From Chiloscyllium plagiosum (taxonomy: Eukaryota), in contig NC_057753.1 in the NCBI RefSeq assembly GCF_004010195.1, forward strand, positions 3,852,632 to 3,872,631: 20,000 nucleotides of DNA, read 5' to 3'. A model generated the notes under the pieces. The model was not told the DNA's origin, did not search any database, and worked only from the letters and a program-made list of their open reading frames with translations. Of the stretch, positions 1 through 19,312 are shown piece by piece; the first letter of the stretch is position 1, and each line of letters starts with the position of its first letter. Both the position numbers and the translations under genes were made by a program.

Positions 1-475
1 AGTTCTGGACTGAGCTGCTCAGCGTGAGAGCTGGCCACTCCCCTTTACAATAGACAATAGGTGTGGGAGTAGGCCATTCTGCCCTTCGATCCTGCACCAC
101 CAGTCATTATGATCATGGCTGATCATCCTCAATCAGTATCCTGTTCCTGCCTTATCTCCATAACCCTTGATTCCACTATTCTTGAGAGCTCTATCCAACT
201 CTTTCTTATACGAATCCAAAGACTGGGCCTCCACTGCCCTCTGGGGCAGAGCATTCAGCACACCTAATTTTGCAGGTTACTTCTAAAATATAAAAGCTTT
301 GGCCAAAAGTCTCATTTATTCTCATAGAAAATAAAAGGCCTCTCAGAGTCTTGTTTTCACCTCTGTACGAAACTAGCCACCTCGGAGCCATTTTTGACCT
401 CTTTGGAAAAAAAAGGACAGCGTATTCTTGAGGAAAGGAACAACTTTAAGAAAAAAAGGGACCAGCTTTGTGACA
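1..475 (-). mobile_element. LTR-like repeat (same family as the solo LTR at 10378-11460), running off the left edge and interrupted by a CR1 fragment
   Basis: Read on -, it starts TGTCAC at 475. With the CR1 insert removed it reads aagcttttatattttagaagtaacctgcaaaatt...aaaggggagtggccagctctc, matching aagcttttaagttttaaaaaataacttgcacaattgaaggggagtggccagttctc at about 10475-10530. Confidence 0.55.
47..256 (-). mobile_element. CR1/HER1-type LINE 3' end (5'-truncated)
   Basis: The reverse complement encodes the CR1 ORF2 C-terminus (NALPQRAVEAQSLDSYKKELDRALKNSGIKGYGDKAGTGY*), followed by a 3' UTR and a (ctattgt)2 tail. It is near-identical to the copy at 17061-17335. Confidence 0.9.
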
Positions 476-1521: not shown

Positions 1522-1752
1522 TTATGACATTTACCTCCTTGATTTTTAATCTCCGATGCTATTTCAGGAAATCGATGTTCTGAGGTTAAAGGGTAATTGT
1601 CAACTTAACATTATAACTCAATACTTGAAGTTTAACAAAGAAGTCTGCAAAACCTATTACTATGTTGGCATTTGAAGTAGTGGTATTCTTGTTCTCGTTC
1701 ATAGCCTCTCCTCTCTCCTCCTCCTCTCCCATTCTCTCCCTTGGTATGACAG

Positions 1753-2684
1753 CTAACTTAGCAGTGATTGTAATTCTGTCTCGAAGCCGATGTGGTCTCA
1801 CTGGGTGTATCACGTATTACCTGGTTTCTATGGCGGTGGCAGATCTTCTGGTTATGATAACAGCTGTAATATTAAACCGGATTGCTGGGATTTATTTCTC
1901 ATCCAGTTTCCTGTCGATCACACCCGTGTGCAGTGTTCGTTCCGTATTAAATCTTACAGCAATTGACAGTTCTGCGTGGTTAACGGTAGTCTTCACCATG
2001 GATCGATTTGTATCTATTTCTTGTCAGAAGCTGAAAATAAAATACTGCACCAAGAAAATGGCATCACGCATTATAGGAACCGTGTGCATACTCAGCTGCG
2101 TAAAAAATATCTTTATCTATTTTCAATTGGAACCTCAATACATAGTTGACAATCTACAATGGTTCTGTAACATAAAAGATATAATTTATACCTTTCCAGC
2201 ATGGATCGCTTATGGCTGGATACGTTCCATATTAACCCCTTTTCTCCCATTCATTGTGGTTTTGCTGCTCAATGCTCTGACTGTCAGACACATTCGAGCG
2301 GCCAACCAAGCACGTAGGAGACTTCGGACCCAGAGCAATGGTGTGAATCTGATTGACCCAGAGATGGAGAAGCGGAGAAAGTCCATTGTTTTACTCTTTG
2401 CCATCTCAGCCAGTTTCATCGTGTTGTATTTGTTGTCTTTTATAACGGTACTTTATGTCCGAATAGCAAACACAACGTATTCCTCAGGTTCAGATAACCG
2501 CAATTATATATTCATTCTCCAACAATGTGGGTATATGCTTCAATTATTGAGCTCCTGCGTCAATCCTTTTATATATACTGGGGCCCAGAGAAAATTCAGA
2601 GATGAGTTAAAGAATGCAGTTGGATACCTCCTTGTATATTTCGTCAGACCATTTCGTTTTTGCAAATCGAATAAGTCAACATGA
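1753..2684 (+). CDS. Class A orphan GPCR, GPR139/GPR142-like (gene 1), main coding exon; first exon not found in the window
   Basis: Open frame with hydrophobic 7TM segments and rhodopsin-family motifs: TM1 N (ANL), TM2 MAVADL, TM3 Cys (PVC), MDRF, ECL2 WFC, TM5 FLPF..LLLN, NPFIY and helix 8 KFR. A pyrimidine tract and gacAG acceptor (1751-1752) give a phase-1 entry G|CT AAC, the same junction as gene 2. The upstream part of the 1662 ORF is probably intron. Confidence 0.9.
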
Positions 2685-2944
2685 ACTCCTATTGTTTTGC
2701 ATTATATTCCATTCTTAGCTTGCAATTTAATTTCCTACTTTCAAGATGCACTTGCCTTATTCAATGCATAAATTTAAGAGTGTAGTTATAGAGGAAATAA
2801 GTGTGGAATCATGGTATTCTGCTCATTATGTCTGGTCCATCATCCACTCGATTACAGCTGGTCATCTATCCTAATGCCATTGTCCTGCCCTATCGCAGTA
2901 TCTTTTGATTCTTTTCATCTTATGGAAATCTATCCCCCGTATGA

Positions 2945-3322
2945 GGTGGCTTGGTTCTTAGCATTGCTGCCTCACAGGGCCAGGGACCCGGGTTCAATTC
3001 CAGCCTCGGCGGCAAGATTAGAGTGGTGCTGGAAAAGCACAGCAGTCAGGCAGCATCCCAGGAGCAGGAAAATCGACCGTTCCCCCTTCATCAGAAATCC
3101 AGCCTCGGACGACTGTCTGTCTGGAGTTTGCACATTCTCCCCATGTCTGCGTGGGTGTCTTCCCACAATCCCAAGATGTACAGGCCAGGTGTCCAAGGAT
3201 GTGTAGGTTGGGTGCATTAGCCAGGGCAAATGCAGTGATGGGGTTGGCGGATACGTTGCTCTTTGAAGGGTCCGTGTGGACTTGTTGGGCCAAATGGCCT
3301 TTTTCCACACTGTAGAGATGCT
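2945..3322 (+). mobile_element. HE1-type tRNA-derived shark SINE, interrupted at 3010-3097
   Basis: A-box-like ggtggcttggttcttagc, B-box ggttcaattcc, central tggagtttgcacattctccccatgtctgcgtggg, and CR1-like tail gggccaaatggcctttttccacactgtag. Confidence 0.85.
3010..3097 (-). mobile_element. Short Penelope-like terminal-repeat fragment inserted in the SINE
   Basis: Inverted match to 4385-4477. Flanked by an 11-bp direct duplication tccagcctcgg (2999-3009, 3098-3108). Confidence 0.8.
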
Positions 3323-3725
3323 AAATTTAAAAAGAAACTTGGAGAATATGAACAGGCTTGGTCGCATCGGTGGAGAGATAACAGAATTCACGATTTCAGT
3401 TCCGTGACTCTTCTTCCACAGATTCTCCAGCAGCTTTAGTACCACTTTTGTTTCAGATTTTCAGTATCCGCAGTTCTGCATTTTACTTAGAGAGAACCAT
3501 CGATTTCGGTCTTGAAGATATTGAGTAGTTGACAATATACAGCCCTTCTGTGGTACAGAATTGCAAACAATTGCTGTCAAAGACTGTGTTCGCTGATTGA
3601 GTCATCGCTAGTTTGAAACTTTTTAGACAGGAACCAGCAACTTGGGGTGAATGTGCGCTGTCGTCCTGTATGGGACAACTACTTCATACCCAGCATACAT
3701 TGAATATATTGACCCAGCATACATT

Positions 3726-4477
3726 GACTACCTGGTCAGGTCCACGCCCCCCTACGACCCACCCTCCCATCCTGGCACTTGCCACCGCAGGAATTGTAAA
3801 ACCTGTGCCACACCTCCTCCCTCACCTCCATCCAAGGCCCTAAAGGAGCCTTCCACATCCATCAAAGTTTTACCTGCACATCCACTAATATCATTTATTT
3901 TATCCGTTGCTGCCGATGCGGTCTCCTCTACATTGGGGAGACTGGACGCCTCCTAGCAGAGCACTTTAGGGAACATCTCCGGGACACCCGCACCAATCAA
4001 CCACACCGTCCCGTGGCCCAGCATTTCAACTCCCTCTCCCACTCTGCCGAGGATATGGAGGTGCTGGGCCTCCTCCACCGCCGCTCCCTCACCACCAGAC
4101 GCCTGGAGGAAGAACGCCTCATCTTCCGCCTCGGGACACTTCATCCCCAGGGCATCAATGTGGATTTCAACAGCTTCCTCATTTCCCCTTCCCCCACCTC
4201 ATCCTAGTTTCTCCGGACTTGTCCGACCTACCCAGCTCCTTTTCCACCTATCCACTCCACCCTCTCCTCCCTGACCTATCACCTTCATCTCCTCCCCCAC
4301 TGACCTATTGTACTCTATGCTACTCTATCCCCACCCCCACCCCCCTCTAGCTTATCTCTCCACGCTTCAGGCTCTCTGCCTTTATTCTGATGAAGGGCTT
4401 TTGCCCGAAACGTCGATTTTGCCTGTCCTCGGATGCTGCCTGAATTGCTGTGCTCTTCCAGCACCACTGATCCAGAA
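3726..4477 (+). mobile_element. Penelope-like retroelement 3' fragment: GIY-YIG endonuclease plus terminal repeat
   Basis: Frameshifted translation CHRRNCKTC...FTCTSTNIIYFIRCCRCGLLYIGETGRLLAEHFREH...PVAQHFNS..H...EEERLIFRLGTLHPQGINVDF contains the GIY-YIG motifs. 16-bp duplication catacattgaatatat at 3694-3709 and 4478-4493. Confidence 0.92.
4384..4417 (+). ncRNA. Minimal type I hammerhead ribozyme motif in the Penelope-like terminal repeat
   Basis: CTGATGA (4387-4393), extra A, stem II GGGC-TTTT-GCCC (4395-4406), GAAA (4407-4410), then CGTC, giving a palindromic ACGT and a GUC cleavage triplet. Stem I is only about 3 bp (att/gat). Confidence 0.7.
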
Positions 4478-6443
4478 CATACATTGAATATATGCTTATC
4501 CTTTGAGCAGCAAGATGGTCTTTTCAAGAAGTTTTTTTTTAAGATTGTACTTTTTAATCTCTTGGTTCGTCTTGTGTTATCATCGAGTTAAACTGAAGAG
4601 TAAAATCCTGTAAAAGGTCAATGAATCTCACTGCCTTTACTTAAGGGTAGAACCCTAAAAAATTGTCCTTGCTCATCATTTCTCCCCACTTCCTGTCGTT
4701 CTTTCTTGTGTTGTTTTTGTTTTAACATTCGTCTTCCATTTCTTATTCGTTTCTTCCTCTTTCTTCCCCTCCTCTTCCTTTTATCTGCACCTCCTCCTTT
4801 TCTTCCACCTCCCCCTCACCCTACTCCGGTGCAATTCGAGCACAAAACTGTTGGGTTTATATGGCACAGCGCCTAACACTACCAAAGGGGAAAGAAAATG
4901 TCTAACTGGAGCATCGAAGAGTCAGAGATCTACAGCACACACACAAAAAGTCAATTGCATCCATCTCGTCAAAATAAAAGTGAGGAAAAGGTGATATGGA
5001 ACTCTGCAGCTACCTATCTTTTTATAGAATTTTTAACGTCTGCTAGTATGTTATCGTCCAATTATTTGTGTCTTATATGTTATAATGTCTTGGATTTAAT
5101 CCATATTTGCTGCATGCGGAACACCAGCCAATGGGTGCCACACTTTATTACAATGCAGATGGATCAGAAACAAAAACTAATTTAAAAGTAGACTGAAATT
5201 TCCAAATAGTTGCAGTTCCCATTGAGGGGATAGATCACTTCGTTAATACCAATGCCTTGAATGTCAAGCTAAGATCAAGACTTAACTAGTTATCTAGCTC
5301 TGTCACTTCCATTTAGCAACACCACAAGGATGCATGTCACGCTGATGCATTAATTTAGTATAGATTTAGTACACTTGCTTCGTCAGACCAACATTTATAT
5401 TTTGTGAAAAACTTAGAAAAAGCAATAAGATTCCATCCAAAAGCAATAAATAATGCTACAAATTATAGTTTTATTTCATTGTTTAGAATTTTTAAATGAG
5501 GCATCGAAATCAAAGTTCAGGAAGCAAGCACACATACCAAAAGAAAATTGCACTTTGTTGGCACCACCAGAAGATTAACTTTGGTTCTGCTTATATTTCC
5601 TCTTGATGTAACATTCTATTTTTCTCCTGTTTATAATGAAGTCTCCCAAATCTAAATGTTGTCTGGAAATGAATTAATGCACAATTGAGCTATTAGAACA
5701 ATGGATTAGAAATAAAGCCAAGGAAAAAATCGTAAGGTGGATATCTTAGACAAAAGAAATACACATACACAAATGTAAGAAAAATTGCAACAGATAAACA
5801 CTGGGAGGGCTAAGTAGCATCCATAGAAGAATCCATGATTTAATAGAGCTTCTCTGTCTAGTGTAAAGTGATATGCTAATATGAACTTGCTGACTCTGAG
5901 TGTAAAGGGCAAAAGTGAGAACACTTCTGGGAGAAGTTGGTTCACTCACCATAATTGAGAGGGAGTAGGAGAGTGGACTCTCCTTGTTTTTCATTGCTTC
6001 TTTTAAATTGCTCTTCCTCTATTTCTGATTCTTTCCATTCTTCTTCTGCTTCTCCATGTTTATCTCCAACTCCTTCTTCTCCACTTCCCCGCTGTTGCTA
6101 CCCCTGTGCAACTCTGGCATTAAAGCTATGGATTGGTATGATACATCCTGTAACATTACAAAGGAGTGTAAAAAAAAAACTCACACAGTAAAGAGCTGTC
6201 CAACTGAGGAGTCATGGAGAATAAGAAGTACTGGGAAAGGACTCTCAGCTTATTTCACCCATGCCAGCCAAAAGCAACAGCGAGAAAAGAATGGTATGAA
6301 ACTCTCCAGCTACACATTGTGGAGGGGAGTTTAATGCACTCTCAACATCTACTTTGAGCTATCATATAACTAAAGGATAACTGATAACATCTAATACTGT
6401 ATGTCTTTCGCGTTTTTGATGACTTGGATACAAGGCAGGCATG

Positions 6444-6540
6444 GCCAAGATTAGAGTGGTGCTGGAAAAGTACAGCAAGTCAGGCAAGTGCAGGAAAATC
6501 GACATTTGGGGCAAAAGCCCTTCATCAGGAATGCCTCCTC
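6444..6540 (-). mobile_element. Short Penelope-like terminal-repeat fragment
   Basis: Inverted match to 4385-4477. 13-bp duplication caaggcaggcatg at 6431-6443 and 6541-6553. Confidence 0.85.
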
Positions 6541-6651
6541 CAAGGCAGGCATGCCGCAGGCCAAATGCCACACACAAGATATAAAACTTTAATGCAACAC
6601 AAGACTGTATTGTATACTGTCTCTACTATATATAGTGATATGACTGAACTA

Positions 6652-7381
6652 TACTGTAAATGGAAGAGCCTTGGGAAAAGTTGATGGGCAGAGAGATCTA
6701 GGAGTTCAGGCCCATTGTGTCCTGAAGGTTGCTGCACAGGTGGATAGTGGTCAAGAAGGCATATGGTATGCTTGCCTTCATCGAACGGAGTATTGAGTAT
6801 AAGAGCTGGCAAGTCCATGTGAACATTGTACAAGACATTGGTTCAGCCGCATTTAGAATACTGTGTACAGTTCTGGTTGCCACATTACCAAAAAGATGTG
6901 GACGCTTTGGAGAGGGTGCAGAGAAGGTTTATGAGGATGTTGCCTGGGATGGAAGGTGCTGGCTATGAAGAGAGGTTGAGTAGGTTAGGTTTGTTTTCAC
7001 TAGAAAAAAAAGGAGATTGAGGGGCACCTGATTGAGGTTTACAAGTTCATGAAGAGTGGATAGAGACAAGCTTTTTTCTCAGGGTGAATGATTCAATAAC
7101 GAGAGGTCTGGCGTTCAAGGTGAGAGGTGAAAAAGTTGTGATATAGGCGGCAAGTACTTCACACAGAGGGTGGTAGGTGCCTGGAATGCGTTACCAGCAG
7201 AGGTGGTAGAGACAGGCATGGTAGATTCATTTAAGGTGTGTCTGGACAGATGCATGAGTCGGTGGGGAACAGAGGGATACAGATGCTGAGGAATTGGGCG
7301 ACAAGTTTAGACAATGGATTTGGATCGGCTCAGGCTTGGAGGGCCCAAGGGCTGTAAATTTACTTTGTTCTTCTTTGTTCT
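6652..7381 (+). mobile_element. CR1/HER1-type LINE 3' fragment (decayed ORF2 C-terminus and 3' UTR)
   Basis: VVKKAYGMLAFI.RSIEYKSW, YKTLVQPHLEYCVQFW.PHYQKDVDALERVQRRF.RMLPGM...YEERLSRLGLFSLE, FTQRVVGAWNALP, and tail (tttgttct)n. Confidence 0.93.
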
Positions 7382-7646
7382 AAGTCAATCTATGTGCAAC
7401 AGGTGCACACGGAAATTTCCAAACAGTTGCACATATCATCGAAGGGGTATCACCCTGTTAGTATCAGTGCCTTCAACGTTGACTTGTGATCAGGGCTTTA
7501 TTGGAACCGTCACTGTCCAGCTTTGAGATTGCCTGTTAGCAACATCACAGGCTAAAAAATGTAATTCAGGCTATAGGTATAGATGTACGACTGTTTCTTA
7601 ATAATACCAGGGCTTACATTTTATGATAGAGGAAAGACAAACATTT

Positions 7647-7879
7647 GAGACAGAAACAGAAATTGCTAGAAGAGCTCAGCAAGTCTGGCAACATCTGTGA
7701 AGAGAAATCAGAGTTCACGTTTTGGGTCGAGTGAGACTTCTGAGAAAGGATCACTCAACCCAGAACGTTAGCTATAATTTCTCCTCACAGATGCTGCGAA
7801 GACCTGTTAGATTTTTTTCCCCAGCTACTTCTGTTTTTTTTTTGTCTTTGATTTACAGCATCCTTTCTGTTTTTATTTG
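7647..7879. mobile_element. Fold-back (inverted-repeat) element made of two Penelope-like terminal-repeat halves
   Basis: Left arm aaacagaaattgctag...gtctggcaacatctgtgaagagaaat...gttcacgttttgggtcgagtga pairs with right arm tcactcaacccagaacgtta...atttctcctcacagatgctgc...cagctacttctgttt. Duplication gacaaa(c/t)attt at 7636-7646 and 7880-7890. Confidence 0.75.
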
Positions 7880-9282
7880 GACAAATATTTAAATTATGCC
7901 AAAGCAATTTAAGGATTTTAAAAGATCATTGCTTTCTATGGTTAATCGGAATAATTAAGGGAAGGGTCGAAATTATAGTTCAGGAAGCAAGTGAGCAATA
8001 CATTACCAATTCAGCGAAATTACACTATGATGTTACCACTTGAAGAAATATTTTGGTTCTGTCTAATTTTGCTCTTGTTACAATGTTTTATTTTCTCCTG
8101 TCCGTATTAAGTTAAACAAAACTAATTGGTAGCTGGTAGTGAGTTGAGCTCCTAGAGAAAAAAATCAGAGATCTAAATAAGACGTGAAAAAATGTAATGT
8201 ATTTATCTTAGAAAAGGTTTACATTAATTACAGGAAAAAAAACAGAAAAATACTGGTAGTACTCATAACACGCGCAAACGAATTTATGATTCGTTGGAGC
8301 TTCTCTGGTCAGTGAAAATATACTAACTACAGGCTCTCTGATGCTGGCAGAGTACAGAGGGTGGTCGTAGAAGTGACTGAGGGTGACTCTGGGAAAAGTT
8401 GGTATGCTCACCATAACTGAGAAGGGGATTGTATCGGACTTGGTGGTCAAAAGAAGCAAGAGCATCCAAAAGCAGGCGGTAGTGAGAAGTAACTGAGGAG
8501 GATTGCGGTAGACTCAGCTCGCTTACCACAACTGAGAGGGGGCTCGCAGAGGTGCTAGTGCTGACAGGAGGAGGCATGTTAAACAGATGGCGGGAATGGG
8601 AAAGGGCTGGAGCGGATTCGGGGAGACGTCAGTCACTCAACACAACACAACACAGAATGGGACCACAAAGACATGGTGCCTACAGGAGCAAGAGTATTTA
8701 ACAGGGGGCAGTCATGACTGAGGAGGATCAGTCACTCACATGGTTCAGAAGGGGATCGTGGAGAACCTGGCAGTCAACAGGAAGGAGACGGTGCACATCC
8801 GGTGGTTGTGGTTCATTGGGAAACAACTTTGGGATGGGCAGCTTGGAGGACCGACAGGATCAGCTTCAGGAGTTAGGGAGTAGGTTGAAACACAGGACCC
8901 CAGGCGTAGTCATGTCAGATATCCTGCCTGTGCCATAAAATTCACCATTTAGTTAAAGGCAGATCAGGGTGGTAAATACATGGATGGAAGAATGACGCAG
9001 AGGGGAGAAGTGTGGATGTTTTGGACAGCGAGATCACTTTTGTGAAAGAAGAAAGCTGTTCAGAAGGAATGCACTTTACCTGAGCTGCAATGGAACTAAT
9101 CTCCTGGCTGAGAGAGGAAATAGTGTGGTAGTGATGGGTTTAAACTTGTAAAGCAGGAGCCCAGGGTGATTAATGCGCCTAGTTTTTCAAGTGCTAGTGA
9201 GGTCAAAATACAGAAAATGGGAATGGGGAAAAGGAAGTGATGAACTACTTAAGTGTTGACAGTGAACAAAGTATGAGTTGCC

Positions 9283-9465
9283 TTGCATCTACCAATCACA
9301 TTCTCAGCTATCTTGCCCCCAGCCCCACCCCTCACCCTCCTATTTATCTCTCAGCCCCCTTCTCTCCCTCACCCCTGATGAATGGCTTTTGCCAAAATGT
9401 CGATGCTCCTGCTCCTCGGGTGTTGCCTGACCTGCTGTGCTTTTCCAGCACCACTCTTTTTGACT
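9283..9465 (+). mobile_element. Penelope-like terminal-repeat fragment inserted in the old CR1
   Basis: C-rich tract followed by ctgatgaatggcttttgccaaaatgtcgat...gcctgacctgctgtgcttttccagcaccac, homologous to 4300-4470. Confidence 0.8.
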
Positions 9466-10594
9466 AGGTGGATATGACACAGAGGGTGGTTAAAGGAGAA
9501 CAGTACTGGATACCTGGCATCTCAGGTTACAAGGCTTTTAGTAGAAACATGCAGATTTAAAAAAAGAGGGGATGTGACAGTCTTGGTCAATGAATGAATG
9601 TGATGTAGTTTCTGAAATAAAATCTGTATGGTTGGAGGTGAGAATTAGGAAGGTCGCTGTGATCTTCCCACAAAGTAGGGAGGAATTAGAAGACAGAAGA
9701 CATTTGTGGGCAGATTGTGGAAGCCTGCTCAAGAGGTAGGGTTGTGATAGTTGCTGCTTTTAATAACATGGGGCATGGAGGGGGAGAAATACCTGCAAAG
9801 TATGCGGAAGGTCATTCTGCAACCCTACTTTTACAGTACTACAAGGGAGAGAGCTATACCTGCTCTGATTCTCAGTAATGAGGCAGGACAAGTGCAGAAC
9901 CTTGGATTGGGGAAGCTTTTGGGAAATACCAGTCAATGTAATAAGATTCAATATTCAACTGGAAAAGGATCACAATCACTCAAGGATTAAACTCCCAGAC
10001 TGGAAAAGGGCAGAGTTTTAGGGGTCTAAGATTGAACTGGAGCACATTGATTGGAAACACATCTTGGTGGACAATGCAATCGATTAAAAATGGGCTACTT
10101 TCAAATAGAGATGAATAGGATGAAAAGTGGGTCTTTACCAATGAGAAATAAATAAGTGGCATCCAAATCAGAAGACTAAGAATGTTAATGACAAAACAAG
10201 GAAGAGAAAGAAGGTACATGATGCATATTGGAATAATAATAGCAACAGAATTAAGGAAAAGTATCTTGAATACAGGGGAGAGACAAAGGCTGGAAAAAAC
10301 AAAGGCTAAGAAAAAACTTAAGGAGAGATTGGCAGGCTGTGCTAAAACAGTCAAATATTTTTCAAATATATTATTAGTGTGATCATACTGCTCCTTTAAC
10401 AGAATTGTGTTATTTTGTTTTCAAAATTATTTTACGACGCAAGTTCCAAATTGTCTGGCTTGATCTACTTGAAGAAGCTTTTAAGTTTTAAAAAATAACT
10501 TGCACAATTGAAGGGGAGTGGCCAGTTCTCCCAGCTCAGCTTCACTCTGGCTTGGTTTGGTTTGAGTAGTCTGCCTGTTCAGAAAAAGCAGTCA

Positions 10595-11103
10595 ATCGGA
10601 AGGATGTTGTGAAACTTGAAAGGGTTCAGAAAAGATTTACAAGGATGTTGCCAGGGTTGGAGGGTTTGAGCTATAGGAAGAGGCTGAACAGGCTGGGGCT
10701 GTTTTCCCTGGAGCGTCGGAGGCTGAGGGGTGACCTTGTAGAGGTTTATAAAATCATGAAGGGCCATGGATAGGGTAAATAGACAAAGTCTTTTCCCTGG
10801 GGTGGGGGGAGTCCAGATCTAGAGGGCATAGGTTTAGGGTGAGAGGGGAAAGATATGAACGAGACCTAAGGGGCAACTTTTTCACGCAGAGGGTGGTGCA
10901 TGTATGGAATGAGCTGCCAGAGGAAGTGGTGGAGGCTGGTACAATTACAACATTTAAAAGGCATCTGGATGGGTATATGAATAGGAAGGGTTTGGGGGGA
11001 TGTGGGCCGAGTGCTGGCAGGTGGGACTAGATTGGGTTGGGCTATCTGGTCTGGGTTGGACCGAAGGGTCTGTTTCCATGCTGTACATCTCTATGACTCC
11101 ATA
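10595..11103 (+). mobile_element. Young CR1/HER1-type LINE 3' fragment inside the solo LTR
   Basis: RKDVVKLERVQKRFTRMLPGLEGLSYRKRLNRLGLFSLERRRLRGDL.EVYKIM and RGNFFTQRVVHVWNELPEEVVEAGTITTFKRHLDGYM, with tail ctctatgactc. Confidence 0.95.
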
Positions 11104-11161
11104 ATTGGTTTGAGGCTGCTGGTCCGAGAAACAGCTCATGGAAGAAGGTGTTCCATGCTGA

Positions 11162-11193
<32 letters not shown>
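11162..11193. repeat. (CT)n microsatellite within the LTR
   Basis: ctctctctctctctttctctctctctctctct. Confidence 0.9.
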
Positions 11194-11547
11194 GTTTGCT
11201 TGTACCTTCTATGCCAATGGGGTGTTATGGGATTGTTGCAAGTAGTTGCAACAGCATCGTTCAGTTGGGGTAATCTGTTAGGTCTTTGGATAGGTTAAGT
11301 TCTTCTATATTCAGTTCTCTTTTGTTCATGTTTCATTTGGTAATCTTGGTAATATTCTTAAAACTAAGCGGTCAGACTAGTTGCATCACTTCTGGGATAA
11401 AACAACTAGCAAAAGTTATTTCTTAAGATGTTTTGAGGGGGTCTGGCTTGGTCTGTCACATTAGTGAAAGATGAGCGAAGCATAAAGCGGGGTCCATAAG
11501 GATCAAGGAAGGTAAACCACTCAGTGAATCAAAGGATATGGCAGAGG

Positions 11548-11864
11548 GGGGAGTTGGCTCAGTGGTTAACACTGCTGCCTAACAGCACCAGGGACCCAAA
11601 TTAGATTCCAGCCTCGGATGACTGTATGGAGTTTGCAAATTCTACCTTTGTCTGCATGGGTTTCCTCCCACACTCTAAAGGTGTGCAGTTTAAGGTGAAT
11701 TAGCCATGCTAAATTGTCCACGGTATTCAGGGATGTGTAGATTGGGTGCATTAGTCAGGGTTTAAATGTAGGGGGATGGGTCTGGATGGGTGACTCTTCG
11801 GAGGGTCGCTGTGGATTTGTTGGGCCACAGAGCCTGTTTCCACACTGTAGGGATTTTATGATCT
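11548..11864 (+). mobile_element. HE1-type SINE
   Basis: A box tggctcagtggttaac, degenerate B box agattccagcc, HE1 core tggagtttgcaaattct, and tail gggccacagagcctgtttccacactgtagggatt. It interrupts the host CR1 between MAE and NEY-like codons. Confidence 0.88.
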
Positions 11865-12189
11865 ACTAATGAATATTGTGTTCCCATATTTATAAACTAG
11901 AAGATTTTGACTGTGGCCCAGGTGAAAATGTGGGTGTTGGCTAACTGAGCAGTATAATGATAAATAAAGAAATGTTAAAAAGGCTGTTAGCAATCCACAA
12001 AGGAAAGTCACCAGGCCCTGGTGGGTTGCATCCTAGATTGCTGAGAGAGTTCAGGCAGAACATTGCTGGTGCTGTTGACAGAAATTTCCAGGCTTCTATG
12101 AACATAACATTTGTCCTGAGCAACTGGGGATTTGAAAATATGATGTCATTTTTTAGGAAGGTGGAAAAGGATAACACTGCTTTTAGCGT

Positions 12190-12350
12190 AAATGAAAATC
12201 AAATATCAACTGGGTGAAGCTAAGATGGAGGACTACTTATGTACCAAACAAAATAAGCTGTAAGTTATAGGACCAAGCGATTCCACTGTCAACAGATCAG
12301 ATGTAAGCTATGCAATTGAAATTCTGTGCGGCTCCGAAGAGTGGTAGTAC
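12190..12350 (+). mobile_element. Internal fragment of a second, CR1-group shark LINE family
   Basis: tcaactgggtgaagcta...ggactactt...aagcgattccactgtcaacagatcagatgtaagctatgca resembles, from memory, a common shark LINE ORF2 linker. Not database-checked. Confidence 0.45.
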
Positions 12351-12814
12351 TTTACATAAAAAGATCAATAGTAGTGTGAAGATATCAGAAGCATTCAACT
12401 GGTAGCAGACTTTTGTGCAATCAGGAGTGATGACAAGGTGATGTAAAGACAAAGGATGGGTCTAAACATAGAGAAACATGAAGAACACTGGACAGCAAGA
12501 AAAATAGGTTTGGGGATGGGAGTGAAAGAGAAGCTTATGGGTGGATACTGAGGGCTTAGTATAGTATAATGCACAGATAACTATATGAAGAGCTGGGGTA
12601 AGCTTAAAAGCAAAGCGAATGCACGAGAAAGTATTGGTCGATATAAAAAAGGAAAAGTCGGCATCTTTTTTAAAAAATAAATGTATAGTTATATAAAAAT
12701 CAAGGCGATAAAAAGTGAAAGAACTATGTTGGAAATCAGAAAGGTAACATTGTGTGGAACCAGAAGAGGTGAGCATGGTCTCCATGGTTACTTTACATTA
12801 GTACACTGATGCTG

Positions 12815-13155
12815 AGAAGCAGCAGTGCGTACTCTCTACAAGGTGAAACACCCACATTCCGCAGAAGCACTTCCCATATCCATGACCACTAGAGCCAAGA
12901 GCAGCAGATACCTGGGAATACCACAAACTGCAAATCCTCCACCAAGTCACTTGTCATCTCAACTTGGAAATATGTGACTGTTCCTTTTGTGGTTTTGGGT
13001 CAATTATTTTGGAATCTTCCCCCCCCATTGCATTGCGGGTTTACATGCAATGGTTGATAAAAGCAGCTCACCACCACCTTCTCAAGTGCCTCTGGGCACC
13101 GACTATAAATGCCAGTCCATCCAGCGACCCTCATGTCCATTGAGTGAATTGAAAA
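12815..13155 (+). mobile_element. 3' end of a CR1-group LINE (second family)
   Basis: gcagcagatacctgggaataccacaaactgcaa...acttggaaatat...tggaatc...gcagctcaccaccaccttctcaag...ataaatgc...gagtgaattgaaaa, a recognisable shark LINE ORF2 end and 3' UTR. Confidence 0.75.
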
Positions 13156-13418
13156 CGATGTGAAATATTAGCAGTTAACCTCCAGAAAGAGGGATGCTAG
13201 TGGGTTTAGCAATCTTGAAAGTACATGAATCTGCAGGCCTGGATGTGATATATCTTTTGGGAGGTAAGGGAAGTGATATTTGAGTCTCTGGAAATAACTT
13301 GCAGATTATCAATGCCAGAAGACTAAACGTTAGGACCCTGGAAAGTATTGAAGCTCAGGGGGAATTTTGTGTGCGTATCCAGAGACCCCAGAAGATATTC
13401 AGGCAGTAGATAAGGTCG

Positions 13419-14123
13419 TGTAATATTAGTCTAAAATATCTTTACCGTATCTTTAAGGTTTGATCCAAAATGAATGCAAGAAAACACATGCACTTTGATA
13501 TGAAACAATTTTATTAGCTTTATATACTTTAGATATATGCAAACTAAAAGTGAATTTATTAGCTTAAACCACTTCAGGCATATTCAACAAGAGAGTCTTA
13601 CGTTCTTTCCCTTATTGAGGGTCCCACAGTGACAGCTCGCACTCAAGAGCTCGATCTCAATTTCGCAACATTCGTGAACTCAGTCTGATGGTGAAGTCCA
13701 TGAAACTGTGAAAAGTTGCCAATATTTATAGTGCATTGAATTTGATGTTATGTGCTGGATTGCCTCTTCTGAGTATTATTCTCAAACATTTCTCTGTGCT
13801 TGGTGATCATAAGCAAGTCCAGGTACCGCTGCAAAACAGCCTACTTCCACACCAAGACCGCCGCCTTGCACAATGTGGGCAAAAGTGAGGACTGCAGATG
13901 CTGGAGATCAGTGTTTAGATTAGAGTGGTGCTGAAAAAGCACAGCAGGTCAGGCAGCATCCGAGGAGCAGGAAAATCGACGTTTCGGGCAAAAACGTCGA
14001 TCTTCTTGCATAATATCCTCCACTCTCGTTACTTTCCAGTCTTCATCAATTCCTTTATTGCCATCTCCACCTAACCCTTAATAATATGGCTTTTGGATAT
14101 CACTTTTGGATTCACACACTGCA
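13419..14123. mobile_element. Candidate old solo LTR
   Basis: Begins TGTAATAT and ends ACACTGCA (TG...CA, imperfect inverted ends). Flanked by ggtcg / ggtgg (4 of 5 match). It interrupts the CR1 at its gataaggt(g)g segment. Confidence 0.45.
13877..14004 (-). mobile_element. Penelope-like terminal-repeat fragment with fold-back junction
   Basis: aaagtgaggactgcagatgctggag...agagtggtgctgaaaaagcacagcaggtcaggcagcatccgaggagcaggaaaatcgacgtttcgggc. Degenerate 12-bp duplication at 13865-13876 and 14005-14016. Confidence 0.85.
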
Positions 14124-14257
14124 GGTGGCTGAAAGTGTTTTGGGAATATTTGATATGATGAGCTGCAGCACAGAGTGTTATGCTGGAACTGTATAAAATG
14201 CTTGTTACAGGTGCAATTGAGTTGTCCTTTCATGATAGGAATGGTCTCACATTTAGG

Positions 14258-14355
14258 AATTCCTGATCAAGGGTTTATGCCCGAAACGTCAAGTCTCTTG
14301 CTCCTCGGGTGCTGCCTGCCCGCTGTGCTTTTCCAGCACCACACTCTCGACGCTG
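14258..14355 (+). mobile_element. Penelope-like terminal-repeat fragment (hammerhead core mutated to CTGATCA)
   Basis: ttcctgatcaagggtttatgcccgaaacgtc...gctcctcgggtgctgcctg...ctgtgcttttccagcaccacactc. Confidence 0.85.
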
Positions 14356-15176
14356 AGTTACTGAACAGTTTATTACACGCATACTGATTTTTCTCACTGC
14401 TGTGATGGAATGATTAAACTCGAGGTAGAAAGTTACAAATTCTGCAGCAAATGTCAAAAGATTATCTTGTGTATTAGGTATAAAGTTACATTTTTTTTCC
14501 CAGCTGTCAAGCCCTGAGTGGATGCCTACCTAGTGTATGTAATGATTCACTCAGATATAGCGAATTTTGCGACCACTAAATAAAATCTTAATTGAGACGA
14601 ATTATGAAGGACTGCATAATGCTGAGTTTCTTGGGATAAGTACTCACTGATGCTTTGTAACGTCTTCCCAAGCCACTGCTGGGGTGCCTGGAACTCCGAC
14701 ACAGTTTGTTCTAAATGGTCGCATTCAGCTGATTTGTCCGTGTCATCATGATGGGCAATTAGATCAATAGTCATAAGGTCTGCAATGTGTGTGTTTTATT
14801 GCATGCAGTGGTGGAAATTTATGTTGTACGTCAGGGAAATGAAAACCAGTGGCAAAATGCCGAGAAGCCGTTGATACATGATGTGGACTGGGAAAGTAGG
14901 TAAGCAGAGGAACAGGCCAAAGGTGTCCCCTGAGTAAAAATGTATCCCATTAATGTTTGCCCAAGCCAAGAAATCGAGCCCCAAATGATAAATCATCAGA
15001 TAGATGTATTTTCATCTCATCTCTCCGCTCTCCCTTACAGGACTGCAGCAAGGGAATCCACACAAGCACATCAATTCCCAGGAGGAACAAAATAATTGCT
15101 AATAGTGCATGTGGAACAATTGCCCCGTGTCATCCATGTGGACAGATCCAATTAATATACTGGCTGGTATCATGCT

Positions 15177-15415
15177 AGTAGATTAGATTACTCACAGTGT
15201 GAAAACAGGCTCTTCGGCCCAACAAGTCCACACCAACCGTCCAAGAAGTAACCCACACAGACCCATTCCCTTAACTAATGTCCCTAACACAACGGGACAA
15301 CTTAGCATAGCAAATTCACCTGGTCTGCACACCTTTGGACTATGGGAGGAATCCCACTCAGCCCGAGGCTGGAATGGAACCTGGCAGTGCTAACCACCAA
15401 GCCACTGTGCCACCC
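15177..15415 (-). mobile_element. HE1-type SINE with internal deletions
   Basis: Reverse complement: gggtggcacagtggcttggtggttagcactgcc...ggttccattccagcctcggg...gggccgaagagcctgttttcacactg followed by a (tctaa)n tail. Confidence 0.85.
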
Positions 15416-15802
15416 GTAGTTAGAGCTTACAACCCAGCAAAGACAGCATGGACAGAGACATATACATAACAGATGCAGGCAGTGAAGGAGGATGGTGAAT
15501 CTCCAGACACCACTATCCCAGACTAAGTAGCATTATTCGGTACATTAATGACAGAGATCAACGTTTTTCTTTTAGGTGTTAATTAAATCAGAAGAAATGG
15601 GGTTAGTGTGGTCATCAGTGTTGGGTTAGATGGTCAACCAAAACTTAACTCAACATTGAGCCACCTTTAATGCACAGAATGGCCTTCTCCCATGTTATTC
15701 CATTCACATGAACATTTAAAAGCACGCTGGACGTTAGCTATATGAGACACAGGCAAGAAAATCACAGGATACAAAATAGCTTGAAATTCACATTAGACTA
15801 TT

Positions 15803-16692
15803 TTATTTCCAAAACTTAAATATTTTAAGGGGCTGAATGAACAGATCAGCCAACCTGGCTCGGAATTTACTCTGGGTCGCAGCATAAATAAATGGGTTGA
15901 CACAAGAGCTCAACAACTGAAGCATGTATCCAGTTTGGCGGAGGATGTAAATAGAGCCAAGGGAGTAGGTGACTTTCACAATTCGGACATAGATGTTCGT
16001 TATCAATAATGGTAGGTATAACAAGATGAAACTGCCCGAGATTGTAAAGAGCAAAATAATGGAGTGTCTCCGCTTCTCCATCTCAGGATCACTTTGGTTC
16101 TCCATGTTCTTTTGGGCACGGAGTCTGTTGCGGGCTTTATTGGTCATGAGTATATACCTGACAGTCAGAGCATTGAGCAGTAAAATAAGCATGGATGGGA
16201 GAAAAGTTGTTAAACTGGAAGTAATAAAGTCGTATGCAATCCATCCTGGTAGCATATAAATTTCTGTTTTTAAGTTGCACAACCATGGTACATTGTCAAC
16301 AATGTACTTGGGCTCCATTTGAAAATATAGAAAGACATTTTTCACGAAAGCTAGCACAGACAAGATTCCTATTACTCGTGCAGCTACCTTCTTGGTGCAA
16401 TATTTTATTTTCAACTTCTGGCAAGAAATGGCTACAAATCGATCAAAGGTGAAAGCTACTGTCAGCCAGGCAGAACTGTCAATGGCTGCAAAGTTTAAGA
16501 CAGAACGGACACTGCATACAGGAGTGATTGACAGGAAGCTGGAGGGGAAGTAGATCCCAGCAATTCGATTTAATATTACAATTGTGACAATGACCAGGAA
16601 ATCAGTCGCTGCCATAGACACCAGGTAATAAGTGATGCATCCAGAAAGACCACATCTTTTTTGAGACAGGATCACAATCACAGTCAAGTTAG
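15803..16692 (-). CDS. Class A orphan GPCR, GPR139/GPR142-like (gene 2), exon 2
   Basis: Open frame with ANL, MAATDF, PVC, FDRF, WLC, FLPS..LLLN, LYLP, NPFIY and KFR. A pyrimidine tract and ttgcAG acceptor (16694-16693) give phase 1. Joined to exon 1 this is 960 nt, or 319 aa plus stop. Confidence 0.92.
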
Positions 16693-17060
16693 CTGCAATG
16701 TTGAGGTGGGGTGCGGGATGGTGGGGGAGGGGAAAGAGGGAGAGCGAGATCAGTGGAATAATAGTTATGTTGCCAATTTGATTCCAAGCAAAATTATACA
16801 TTTTCCAGAAATACGTACAAAATTTAAAACTTATTGCAAGGAACACAATTGAGAAATTATCCATTATGTTAGAGAGAGCTGATTCTGGGGCTTAAAATTA
16901 TCATCTCATTAATAGACACCATATTAAAATAACAATATCATGAAGCCAGTCAGAAGGCAGGATATCATAGACACATTGAAAGCTACGTGGATTTGTCTAA
17001 TGCACATAAAAAGCAAGGAAGTATAAAAAAATTAATGAACCAGAGGACACAGCATAAAAA

Positions 17061-17335
17061 AGGGGTAGGCCATTTAGGACAGAGATGAGGAGAAACTTCT
17101 TCACCCAGAGAGTGGTGGGTGTGTGGAAGGCTCTGCACCAGAGGGCAGTGGAGGCCCAGTCTCTGGATTCGTTTAAGAAAGAGTTGGATAGAGCTCTCAA
17201 GGATAGTGGAATCAAGGGTTATGGAGATAAGGCAGGAACAGGATACTGATTGAGGATGATCAGCCATGATCATAATGAATGGTGGTGCAGGCTCGAAGGG
17301 CAGAATGGCCTACTCCTGCACCTGTTGTCTATTGT
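17061..17335 (+). mobile_element. CR1/HER1-type LINE 3' end in the intron of gene 2
   Basis: GRPFRTEMRRNFFTQRVVGVWKALHQRAVEAQSLDSFKKELDRALKDSGIKGYGDKAGTGY*, then 3' UTR and ctgttgtctattgt tail. Confidence 0.93.
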
Positions 17336-18540
17336 AAGGAAATTACAAAACAATCAACATATTTGCTGCAATGAGCGACATTTTATATTATATTTCCAAC
17401 AGCATGAAAATGGGCACATTCCCAGTGAATGATTGTAAAATCTTTCACTGTTGGAAAATACCGAAATCACATTCTTCAACAGGGAAAAGAAACAATGGCT
17501 TGTGGGCACAATAAAGCCAGCTCTTCAGATAATATTCAAGTTCAATTTTATGTGTTGATCTGAACCATTCAAAATAGCACATACCTGTTCTCGTTCATGG
17601 GAAGGCTGTCCTAAAATGCGGCATAATCTCCATGTTATACAGCACTGACAAAAATAAAATGATCTTTGTCCTTTATTATACTATTGAAGTAAGGACCTTG
17701 TAAATTTGATGCACGAGATCTCAGACCGACTACAGCTACACTCAATATGGGGAATATAGTGAATATGGGAATAGTTCCAGTCACTCCCAGGAGCCAAGGA
17801 AAATTCTGCTTATAGCAGTCATCAACTTAGTGCACTCAGCAGTGGTGGGAGTTGAGTAGGAGAGCTATTCAGATGTATTGAACGCTGAAAGTGAGGAACT
17901 GAAACACTGTGCTCTTGGGGTGAACATCATTCATCCACTCAAGCATAATCAGAGCAATGCCAATATATCTGACAGCATCTCGTTGCCGATTCACACCCCT
18001 TCAGTAAGTTTAGTCACTATGATTGCACATGGAATGATTAAACGGTACTGTCCTTTCAAACAATGATTCTGTTGTGGAAATTATATGCACATTTTCAAGT
18101 TCAACATCAGCACAAATTTATGTTTAGATCATGATGAAACTGTAATGATGAACCATAGCAATAATGGAAATAAAACAGTAGAACTTCAGACGCACAGTGT
18201 GTGGATTCATCAACAGAATCAGTTTTACATCACAATTAGCTTCGACAATTTATAGACAATTGATACTCAACAACATAGTGGAATTGCATATGCACAATAG
18301 AATGTGTATTTTGATTTATCCACCATTAATGACATTGATATAATACTTACACTTAGACTGTTAGATATCAGTGGTGAGTGTGAAAAATTATTAAATTTCA
18401 GCAAATAAGTCACCTACCACAGAGACAATACAACATTAAAGGCAGCAATTTATAGTCATAGAGACCTGCAGAATGGAAAAAGGCCCTCCAGTGCACTACA
18501 TCTGAGCTATCAAAACCAACTGTCCAGCTATTCTATTCAG

Positions 18541-18640
18541 TTCTGGAGAAGGGTGACCGGAATTGAAACATTATCTCTATATTCTCTATATGCATGGTGC
18601 CACACCTGCTCAGTTTCTCCAACAATGTGTTTTTTTTTTA
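18541..18640 (+). mobile_element. Decayed Penelope-like terminal-repeat half
   Basis: ttctggagaagggtgaccggaattgaaacatta...cctgctcagtttctccaacaat resembles the right arms at 7738-7840 and 19000-19075. Confidence 0.55.
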
Positions 18641-18894
18641 ATTTTTCTTTCTCATCCCATTTTCCGGTAATTTCATGAAACTACGTAGGTAAAAAGGAAG
18701 TAATATGATGTCAACCTGAAGAGCTGACAACACTTGTACCAAAGAATATTGTCAGTAAATGAAAACGATCATAATGTTAAGATAAACCAATACCTTAAAG
18801 TTAGGAAATGAAACTTTAACTGAGAATGAATTGCAACAGTTAAGCAATGCACATTATACCAGTGTCGGAGAAAACAATATAAAACAACGAACTG

Positions 18895-19075
18895 GGATAC
18901 TGGAAATCTAAAGAAGAAAAAGCAAGCGTGGCTGGAGAAACTCAGAAGACCTGGCAGCATCTGTAGAGGGAAAAGCAGAGTTAACATTTCCAATCCAGCG
19001 AAGAAAGGTCATTGGAGTCGAAACATTAACTCAGTTTTCTCTCCACAGGTGCTGCCTGAGCTGGTGCCTTTCTCT
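18895..19075. mobile_element. Fold-back Penelope-derived element (same type as 7647-7879)
   Basis: ggcagcatctgtagagggaaaagcagagttaacatttccaatcca pairs with tggagtcgaaacattaactcagttttctctccacaggtgctgcc. Confidence 0.7.
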
Positions 19076-19184
19076 CGGGTCAAATACTATATGGAAGGTG
19101 GAGGTGATCTCGTGGTCACTGGAGAAAGTGATACTCCCTCCAAAAAACGATTCTCTTAGTTAGTAATCAACCACAATAGTTTAC

Positions 19185-19254
19185 CTGGCACCCCAATAAC
19201 TGCTATGACAGGATAGCAAATGGCAAACACCAGGCCTCTCGTTACTCCATGCAT
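19185..19254 (-). CDS. GPR139-like gene 2, exon 1 (N-terminus and first half of TM1)
   Basis: gaaATGC... encodes MHGVTRGLVFAICYPVIAVIGVP plus G, then donor CCAG|gtaaac. Its 70 nt (phase 1) match the exon 2 acceptor and rebuild GVPAN, equivalent to GLPAN in mammalian GPR139 TM1. Confidence 0.9.
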
Positions 19255-19305: not shown

Positions 19306-19312
19306 ATTTATA
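19306..19312 (-). promoter_or_regulatory. Candidate TATA box of gene 2
   Basis: TATAAAT on - about 52 nt upstream of the exon 1 ATG. No transcript evidence. Confidence 0.45.

What the first reader, a model, noticed from the sequence alone, without database searches (positions are those of the whole stretch)
1753..19254. Convergent pair of apparently intact GPR139-like orphan receptors: a candidate expanded shark chemosensory family
Seen: two paralogous 7TM genes, tail-to-tail, 13 kb apart, with the same intron position and phase and open frames despite heavy TE decay around them. Hand alignment gives about 80 differences over about 278 aligned residues. Established: mammalian GPR139 and GPR142 are single-copy receptors activated by aromatic amino acids, and cartilaginous fishes have very few OR genes. 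These proteins share GPR139 landmarks (G.PAN, S.WLTV.FT.DRF, LLLN, KFR) but differ too much to be the orthologue. Inference: local duplication, compact two-exon structure and a minimal N-terminus look like a birth-and-death sensory or ligand-surveying receptor repertoire whose function I do not know to be characterised.
Basis: partly seen in the sequence, partly recalled or inferred. Interest (0 to 1): 0.75.

Follow-up and report, generated by a model that had tools for sequence, protein, structure and literature searches.

The report
Shark-expanded receptor family, diversified pocket
These two shark genes belong to a large family of cell-surface receptors that multiplied in sharks, rays and chimaeras and vary most where they bind their signal, as smell receptors do, but where they are active and what they detect is untested.

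Summary
Both genes are real class A GPCRs. Gene B is complete (319 aa); gene A's exon 1 lies outside the window. They are 68% identical and under purifying selection (dN/dS 0.22).

They are not GPR139 orthologues. They sit in a family expanded in sharks, rays and a chimaera: 1,881 hits, and 71 of the best 120 are from one horn shark, 53 on one contig. The family's sister (100/99) is a gene with one cluster per species in amphibians and sturgeon, so the family is not without bony-vertebrate kin.

Pocket positions evolve 2.3-2.5 times faster than other transmembrane positions in the family, but only 0.3-0.7 times as fast in the low-copy relatives. GPR139's key pocket residues are absent. This is the pattern of a ligand-diversified repertoire.

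Expression was not measured, so a chemosensory role is inferred (about 0.45).

My paper searches found no description of the family. The scan noted it twice before on other DNA (unchecked notes).

The parts
1705..1752 (+). Polypyrimidine tract and AG splice acceptor of gene A; its exon 1 is upstream of the window
   Evidence: Sequence; no exon-1 match on this strand upstream
1753..2684 (+). Gene A exon 2: TM1 (from 1.49) to stop, 309 aa open frame
   Evidence: Pfam 7tm_1 E 1.1e-22
15666..15671 (-). Candidate ATTAAA poly(A) signal of gene B, about 130 nt after the stop
   Evidence: motif only, use not shown
15803..16692 (-). Gene B exon 2: 295 aa to stop; ECL3 is 5-6 residues shorter than in most relatives, as in Hemiscyllium P0004
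   Evidence: Pfam 7tm_1 E 5e-21; seven-helix AF2 model, pLDDT 86.3
16693..19184 (-). Gene B intron, 2,492 nt, GT-AG, phase 1, inside TM1
19185..19254 (-). Gene B exon 1: ATG, short N-terminus and start of TM1 (23 codons plus 1 nt)
   Evidence: matched by 92 of the family proteins in tblastn, best E 3.6e-9
19307..19312 (-). TATAAA box about 55 nt upstream of gene B's ATG
   Evidence: Sequence; motif only, promoter activity not shown

Best explanation
The two genes are members of a chondrichthyan-expanded repertoire of class A GPCRs from the wider GPR139/142-related clade. SHOWN: jawed vertebrates have a conserved low-copy gene (type A, seen here in amphibians and sturgeon) with a nearly invariant pocket. 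Its chondrichthyan sister group multiplied into tandem clusters before sharks, rays and chimaeras split, and kept multiplying within lineages. The copies kept the seven-helix core, the C3.25-ECL2 cysteine pair and the intracellular motifs, but diversified the pocket and lost the basic 6.51 residue. INFERRED: each copy binds a different small, water-borne or tissue-borne ligand (amino-acid derivative or short peptide) inside the helical bundle and signals through a shared G protein (Gi/o or Gq, to PLC). The most likely use is a chemosensory array expressed sparsely in sensory cells facing the outside: olfactory microvillous neurons, or solitary chemosensory or taste-type cells.
For: Family size and clustering: 1,881 of 3,803 candidates at E<=1e-3. 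Of the 120 listed, 119 are named and all are sharks; 71 are Heterodontus, 53 of them on one 59.5-Mb contig. Rays and Callorhinchus also have members. Tree: the family (93/92) is sister to type A (100/99); the AU test rejects joining it to type B, p 0.002. Pocket/other-TM rate ratio is 2.31 and 2.54 in the family (p<1e-6), 0.30 in type A and 0.69 in type B (p 0.18); the contrast holds against outer non-pocket positions. Cross-species nearest pairs differ at 7/100 pocket and 70/556 other sites; same-species pairs at 63/425 and 226/2363; Fisher p 0.014. Known chondrichthyan olfactory repertoires are small: mean 43.8 genes, range 20-62 (PMC10869828, passages).
Against: There is no expression or ligand evidence. 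Pocket diversification marks any ligand-diversified family, including immune and somatosensory ones. The window's own pair shows only a mild excess (9/25 pocket against 36/139 other), and 3 of B's 15 differences from its Hemiscyllium relative are pocket sites. The orthologue contrast rests on 4 pairs. The 25 pocket positions are a recalled standard list, fixed after I had seen column profiles, so the test was not blind. V2Rs already label sparse neurons in the catshark nose (PMC10116579, passages). Catshark OR genes are expressed mostly outside the nose (PMC11979771 section 13), so receptor-like anatomy does not predict tissue.
Confidence: 0.5

Rival explanations
1. An immune or epithelial surveillance repertoire, working like formyl-peptide or mast-cell MRGPR receptors (recalled analogy), that detects microbial or damage-derived molecules.
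For: It predicts the same pocket diversification. One catshark cluster lies by an integrin alpha-X-like gene: a fused model and neighbouring accessions on the same 98-Mb contig.
Against: No 'receptor 139', 'capa receptor' or 'sex peptide' row appears among the 8,645 bamboo-shark marker rows of an immune single-cell atlas (PMC11372145, supplement searches). This is weak evidence: sparsely expressed paralogues would not pass marker thresholds.
Confidence: 0.2
2. A somatosensory-ganglion or central neuronal repertoire for endogenous or irritant peptides, an MRGPR-like expansion of a neuromodulatory receptor.
For: The wider clade is neuropeptide-related: GPR139/142 are sister to protostome MIP, FMRFamide and proctolin receptors (PMC8557429, passages). 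The fold search returns peptide receptors.
Against: Dozens of pocket variants per genome are hard to match with endogenous ligands. The fold hits are generic class A matches with similar scores.
Confidence: 0.15
3. A reproductive repertoire (testis, sperm or gamete and pheromone recognition).
For: Fast pocket change after duplication fits this. Several catshark v2r genes and or2 are testis-enriched.
Against: No direct evidence was found. The pair is under strong purifying selection.
Confidence: 0.08
4. Largely neutral amplification in duplication-prone regions, with redundant or decaying copies.
For: The surroundings are rich in repeats. 26 of 115 anchored database models lack the usual exon 1 by my pattern test. 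Some models are fused to neighbouring genes.
Against: dN/dS is 0.22 at dS about 0.95. The change is concentrated in the pocket rather than spread evenly. Cross-species pairs keep their pocket.
Confidence: 0.07

Closest known systems
Human GPR139 (PDB 7vug, 9m42) and its sister GPR142
   Same: Best solved-structure match by sequence for gene B (E 1.6e-9), the family profile, and the type A and B profiles. Databases give most members the automatic label 'probable GPR139'.
   Different: The family profile scores GPR139 only 63.9 bits, against 211 for type A, 193 for type B and 129 for an amphioxus protein. GPR139's D2.61, E3.29, E3.32, R6.51 and N7x38 (PMC12775434, passages) are N, S, N, L or S, and Y in the window genes. 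The family keeps C3.25, which GPR139 lacks in the alignment. No GPR139 or GPR142 sequence was in my trees.
Type A low-copy orphan of amphibians and sturgeon (e.g. XP_069092602.1 Pleurodeles, RXM35349.1 Acipenser)
   Same: Sister group of the family, 100/99. Same short N-terminus; shares the TM3, ICL2 and ICL3 motifs.
   Different: One 90% cluster per species in 20 amphibians plus sturgeon. Pocket 96% identical, with K6.51 and N7.39 in 22 of 22.
Type B low-copy orphan (XP_005988539.1 Latimeria); possibly one of the GPR210A/B orphans of Rinne et al. 2019 (PMC6504862)
   Same: Same wider clade. Its exon-2-only models break at the same TM1 site. It keeps GPR139-like E2.61, D3.29 and R6.51.
   Different: An out-paralogue: sharks have their own type B gene. 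Identity with GPR210 is not tested; the paper's text gives only Ensembl ids and its supplement did not hold them.
Vertebrate chemoreceptor families OR, TAAR, V1R/ORA, V2R/OlfC, T1R, T2R
   Same: Works like them in pattern: large clustered repertoire, lineage-specific turnover, pocket variable between paralogues and steadier between species.
   Different: Not a member by sequence: Pfam gave only 7tm_1. None of 82 complete models has an N-terminal glycosylation sequon, which ORs have (recalled). Sensory expression is not shown.

Membership tests
Class A (rhodopsin-like) GPCR | 7tm_1 domain, seven helices, N1.50, D2.50, DRx, P5.50, NPxxY | tested here: met
   TM3 reads DRF; W4.50 is absent; 6.48 is Y; P6.50 is present in B only.
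GPR139 orthologue | Closer to GPR139 than to other lineages; single copy | tested here: not met
   63.9 bits to GPR139 against 129-211 to type A, type B and amphioxus proteins; dozens of copies per shark. Judged by profile score, not by a tree containing GPR139.
GPR139 orthologue | Pocket residues E3x32, R6x51, N7x38, D2x61, E3x29 | tested here: not met
   None of the five is kept in either window gene; R6.51 in 5 of 120 near-family rows.
GPR139/GPR142-related clade (broad) | GPR139 is the nearest solved human receptor; groups with GPR139-like orphans | tested here: met
   The margin over TRHR is modest for the family profile (63.9 against 50.6 bits) and larger for type B (94.1 against 62.5 for NTSR1).
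GPR210A/B (Rinne 2019) | Orthology to the named coelacanth Ensembl proteins | not testable with these tools
   The ids could not be resolved to sequences.
Birth-and-death receptor repertoire | Many clustered paralogues with lineage-specific expansion | tested here: met
   53 of 120 listed clusters on one Heterodontus contig and 12 on one Rhincodon contig. Physical spacing within those contigs was not seen.
Birth-and-death receptor repertoire | A pseudogene fraction | not testable with these tools
   No whole genome is held; protein libraries omit pseudogenes.
Chemosensory receptor family | Pocket variable among paralogues and conserved among orthologues | tested here: met
   only 4 cross-species pairs, and the pocket list was recalled.
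Chemosensory receptor family | Sparse expression in chemosensory cells | not tested
   No read data were obtained; the catshark atlas supplement was unreadable.
Chemosensory receptor family | Activation by environmental chemicals | not testable with these tools
   Needs a heterologous assay.
Odorant receptors (OR) | OR Pfam match and N-terminal glycosylation sequon (recalled features) | tested here: not met
   Only 7tm_1 at E<=1e-3; 0 of 82 complete models with a sequon.

The most novel reading that the evidence does not exclude
This is an unrecognised olfactory receptor family of cartilaginous fishes, larger than their OR, TAAR, V1R and V2R sets combined. It arose by co-option of a neuropeptide-type GPR139-related receptor that stayed low-copy in amphibians and sturgeon. 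That would overturn the view that sharks smell with about 40 receptors and add a new class of vertebrate chemoreceptor.
Probability: 0.35. Interest if true: 0.92.

Novelty: new variant of a known kind. Interest (0 to 1): 0.72.

Why it matters
Sharks have large olfactory organs but the smallest known olfactory gene set among the vertebrate groups surveyed (mean 43.8 genes; PMC10869828). One subfamily of this family already gives 71 clusters in one shark. If the family is expressed in the nose, the small-repertoire puzzle is an artefact of counting only the known families. Whatever the tissue, it is a large vertebrate receptor family hidden under an automatic 'probable GPR139' label. Its low-copy sister gene in Xenopus and axolotl gives a tractable way to find the ancestral ligand. 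Existing catshark tissue RNA-seq could test the main question directly.

Tried and rejected
No whole genome is held, so copies, clusters and pseudogenes in this species could not be counted.

Sequencing-run search: no RNA holder listed. No read depth was obtained, so expression and the splice joint stay open.

Metagenome contig scan: 139 pattern matches, none confirmed. Rfam: 0 matches.

An olfactory-promoter O/E-type motif (recalled) occurs near gene B's start, but the window has 32 matches against 41.5 expected by chance, so it was rejected as evidence.

Foldseek did not separate GPR139 (rank 17) from other peptide receptors. The ESM Atlas top clusters are 'probable GPR139', Chordata; a lead only.

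A DOI recalled for Syed 2023 fetched an unrelated paper, which was not used. The catshark atlas supplement was too large to read and may bear on expression; bioRxiv supplements are closed.

GPR139 and GPR142 sequences did not come up in any search that returns sequences, so they are missing from the trees.

Rejected readings: GPR139 orthologue; OR; recent local duplication; short N-terminus or two-exon layout as signs of a sensory role; family with no bony-vertebrate counterpart.

Full report
OBSERVATION. The window holds two long 7TM frames, tail to tail, 13,118 nt apart. Gene B (minus strand) has exon 1 at 19254-19185, a 2,492-nt GT-AG phase-1 intron and exon 2 at 16692-15803, giving 319 aa. 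A TATAAA lies about 55 nt upstream and an ATTAAA about 130 nt downstream. Gene A shows only its acceptor and exon 2 (1753-2684); its exon 1 is not in the window, and no poly(A) hexamer was found in 2685-3400. The exon-2 products are identical at 202 of 295 residues, with dN 0.21, dS 0.95 and ratio 0.22. Both pass Pfam 7tm_1. The AF2 model of B has seven helices, pLDDT 86.3. tblastn with the 122 proteins then held found no third copy.

FAMILY. Gene B's exon-2 protein hit 1,881 of 3,803 candidates at E<=1e-3; only the best 120 were listed, so the rest are not verified as family. Of the 120, 119 are named and all are sharks: Heterodontus 71 (53, 10 and 8 on three contigs), Rhincodon 16 (12 on one contig), Stegostoma 6, Heptranchias 5, Pristiophorus 5, Hemiscyllium 4, and 12 from five other species (tally). 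The best hit is a Hemiscyllium protein at 94%, so the source is probably a bamboo or epaulette-type carpet shark (inference). A 40-row profile run on the 50% library gave 136 proteins at E<=1e-30 and 769 at E<=1e-10. I looked up 16 of the divergent family representatives: 15 are named sharks, rays (Hypanus, Leucoraja, Rhinoraja) or Callorhinchus, and one had its organism cut off.

RELATIVES OUTSIDE CARTILAGINOUS FISH. The same profile found full-length proteins of salamander (211 bits), coelacanth (193), teleosts (174 and 122), a caecilian (104) and amphioxus (129). Human GPR139 scores 63.9. The salamander protein (type A) hit 25 of 1,675 candidates: 20 amphibian clusters, each headed by a different species, one sturgeon and four chondrichthyan family members; no teleost or amniote appeared. 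The coelacanth protein (type B) hit 145 of 1,739. The 120 listed span three sharks, sturgeon, bichir, bowfin, teleosts, amphibians, turtles and squamates, mostly one cluster per named species. Both searches are word-limited and 90% clusters can hide recent duplicates, so 'low copy' is an inference.

TREES. A quick tree of 74 rows and a careful tree of 33 rows place the chondrichthyan family (93/92) as sister to type A (100/99). Type B, type C and amphioxus lie outside. An AU test on 21 rows rejects family plus type B, p 0.002. Half of the 32 unnamed full-length representatives, most near hits and most type A and B rows were left out for size. GPR139 and GPR142 were not available for the tree, and the root is one long unnamed protein. 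In the 74-row tree A and B are not sisters; B pairs with the Hemiscyllium protein. Rinne et al. 2019 name GPR210A/B orphans near GPR139/142 in coelacanth, gar and fishes (PMC6504862; passages and one supplement search). Types B or C may be these, untested. Thiel et al. 2021 place GPR139/142 as sister to protostome MIP, FMRFamide and proctolin receptors (PMC8557429, passages).

POCKET. GPR139's pocket residues (PMC12775434, passages) are not kept in either window gene. A basic residue at 6.51 is present in 22 of 22 type A and 90 of 90 type B rows, but R is in only 5 of 120 near-family rows. I compared 25 standard pocket positions (recalled list, chosen) with 139 other TM positions. Rows were de-duplicated at 92% and capped at 60: near 60 of 120, divergent 54 of 63, type A 21 of 22, type B 60 of 90. 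The pocket/other rate ratio was 2.31 (p 3e-7) and 2.54 (p 9e-8) in the family, 0.30 (p 1e-5) in type A and 0.69 (p 0.18) in type B. Against the 52 outer non-pocket positions the ratios were 1.79, 1.91, 0.34 and 0.67. Near family and type B have similar overall TM identity (0.71 and 0.68) but pocket identity of 0.49 and 0.76. Among reciprocal nearest pairs, 4 cross-species pairs differ at 7% of pocket and 13% of other sites, and 17 same-species pairs at 15% and 10% (p 0.014). Against this, the window pair itself shows 9/25 against 36/139, and B differs from its Hemiscyllium relative at 3 pocket sites among 15 differences.

FEATURES THAT DO NOT DISCRIMINATE. Types A, B and C and the amphioxus proteins have equally short N-termini. 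Many type B models break at the same TM1 site as the family's, indirect evidence that the intron is ancestral. None of 82 complete family models has an N-terminal sequon.

EXPRESSION AND LITERATURE. Expression of these genes was not measured. One Chiloscyllium plagiosum member has four RefSeq accessions for one protein, which hints at transcript support. No family label appears among the bamboo-shark immune-atlas markers (PMC11372145, supplement searches). The catshark atlas lists no GPCR in its top 50 brain-plus-olfactory genes, which is neutral because V2Rs are missing there too (PMC11979771, sections 11 and 13 read). Searches (GPR139, GPR142 or 'receptor 139' with shark, elasmobranch, chondrichthyan and expansion terms) returned no description of this expansion; one search matched 3,839 papers, of which 40 were listed, none with GPR139. 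Term searches inside PMC10620051, PMC6368271 and PMC13113109 showed nothing on it. The library lacks most subscription papers. Two unchecked notes of this scan describe the same family in other genomes. My trees qualify one note's 'only in sharks, rays and chimaeras': the expansion is, but the lineage is not.

VERDICT. The family is the chondrichthyan, multi-copy, pocket-diversified counterpart of a conserved low-copy orphan, not GPR139 itself. It works like a chemoreceptor repertoire in evolutionary pattern. Membership among chemosensory receptors is open until expression and ligands are known: about 0.45 for external chemosensation, 0.35 for olfaction in particular. Interest 0.72.

Noticed in passing
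window 5450-5960 and 7920-8430 (+): An old duplicated non-coding block of about 500 nt, roughly 70% alike, in the spacer between the genes; no long shared frame was seen. Origin unexplained.
   Followed up: partly
window 45-264 and 17118-17337: A 220-nt inverted pair at 95%, one copy upstream of gene A's exon 2 and one in gene B's intron. Probably two young copies of a LINE 3' end (inference).
   Followed up: no
window 3800-4207 (+): A 135-aa frame with a weak GIY-YIG match (E 0.0045, below the Pfam cut-off); likely the end of a Penelope-type retroelement.
   Followed up: partly
window 14650-15100 (+): A non-repeat-looking stretch with a GTAAG donor-like site near 14899 and a pyrimidine-rich AG near 15040. 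All frames carry stops; not identified.
   Followed up: partly
P0217 group (amphibians, sturgeon): The type A orphan has an almost invariant, basic pocket (R2.61, K6.51, K6.55), suggesting one conserved acidic ligand. It was not found in teleosts or amniotes.
   Followed up: partly
P0207, P0193, P0106: Database models fuse family members to integrin alpha-X-like, SCN1A-like and ZNF595-like genes. These are probably annotation errors, but they mark the clusters' neighbours.
   Followed up: no
P0226 group: Type B is present from sharks to turtles and squamates, labelled GPR139 or GPR142 although distinct; no bird or mammal was among the 120 rows listed.
   Followed up: no
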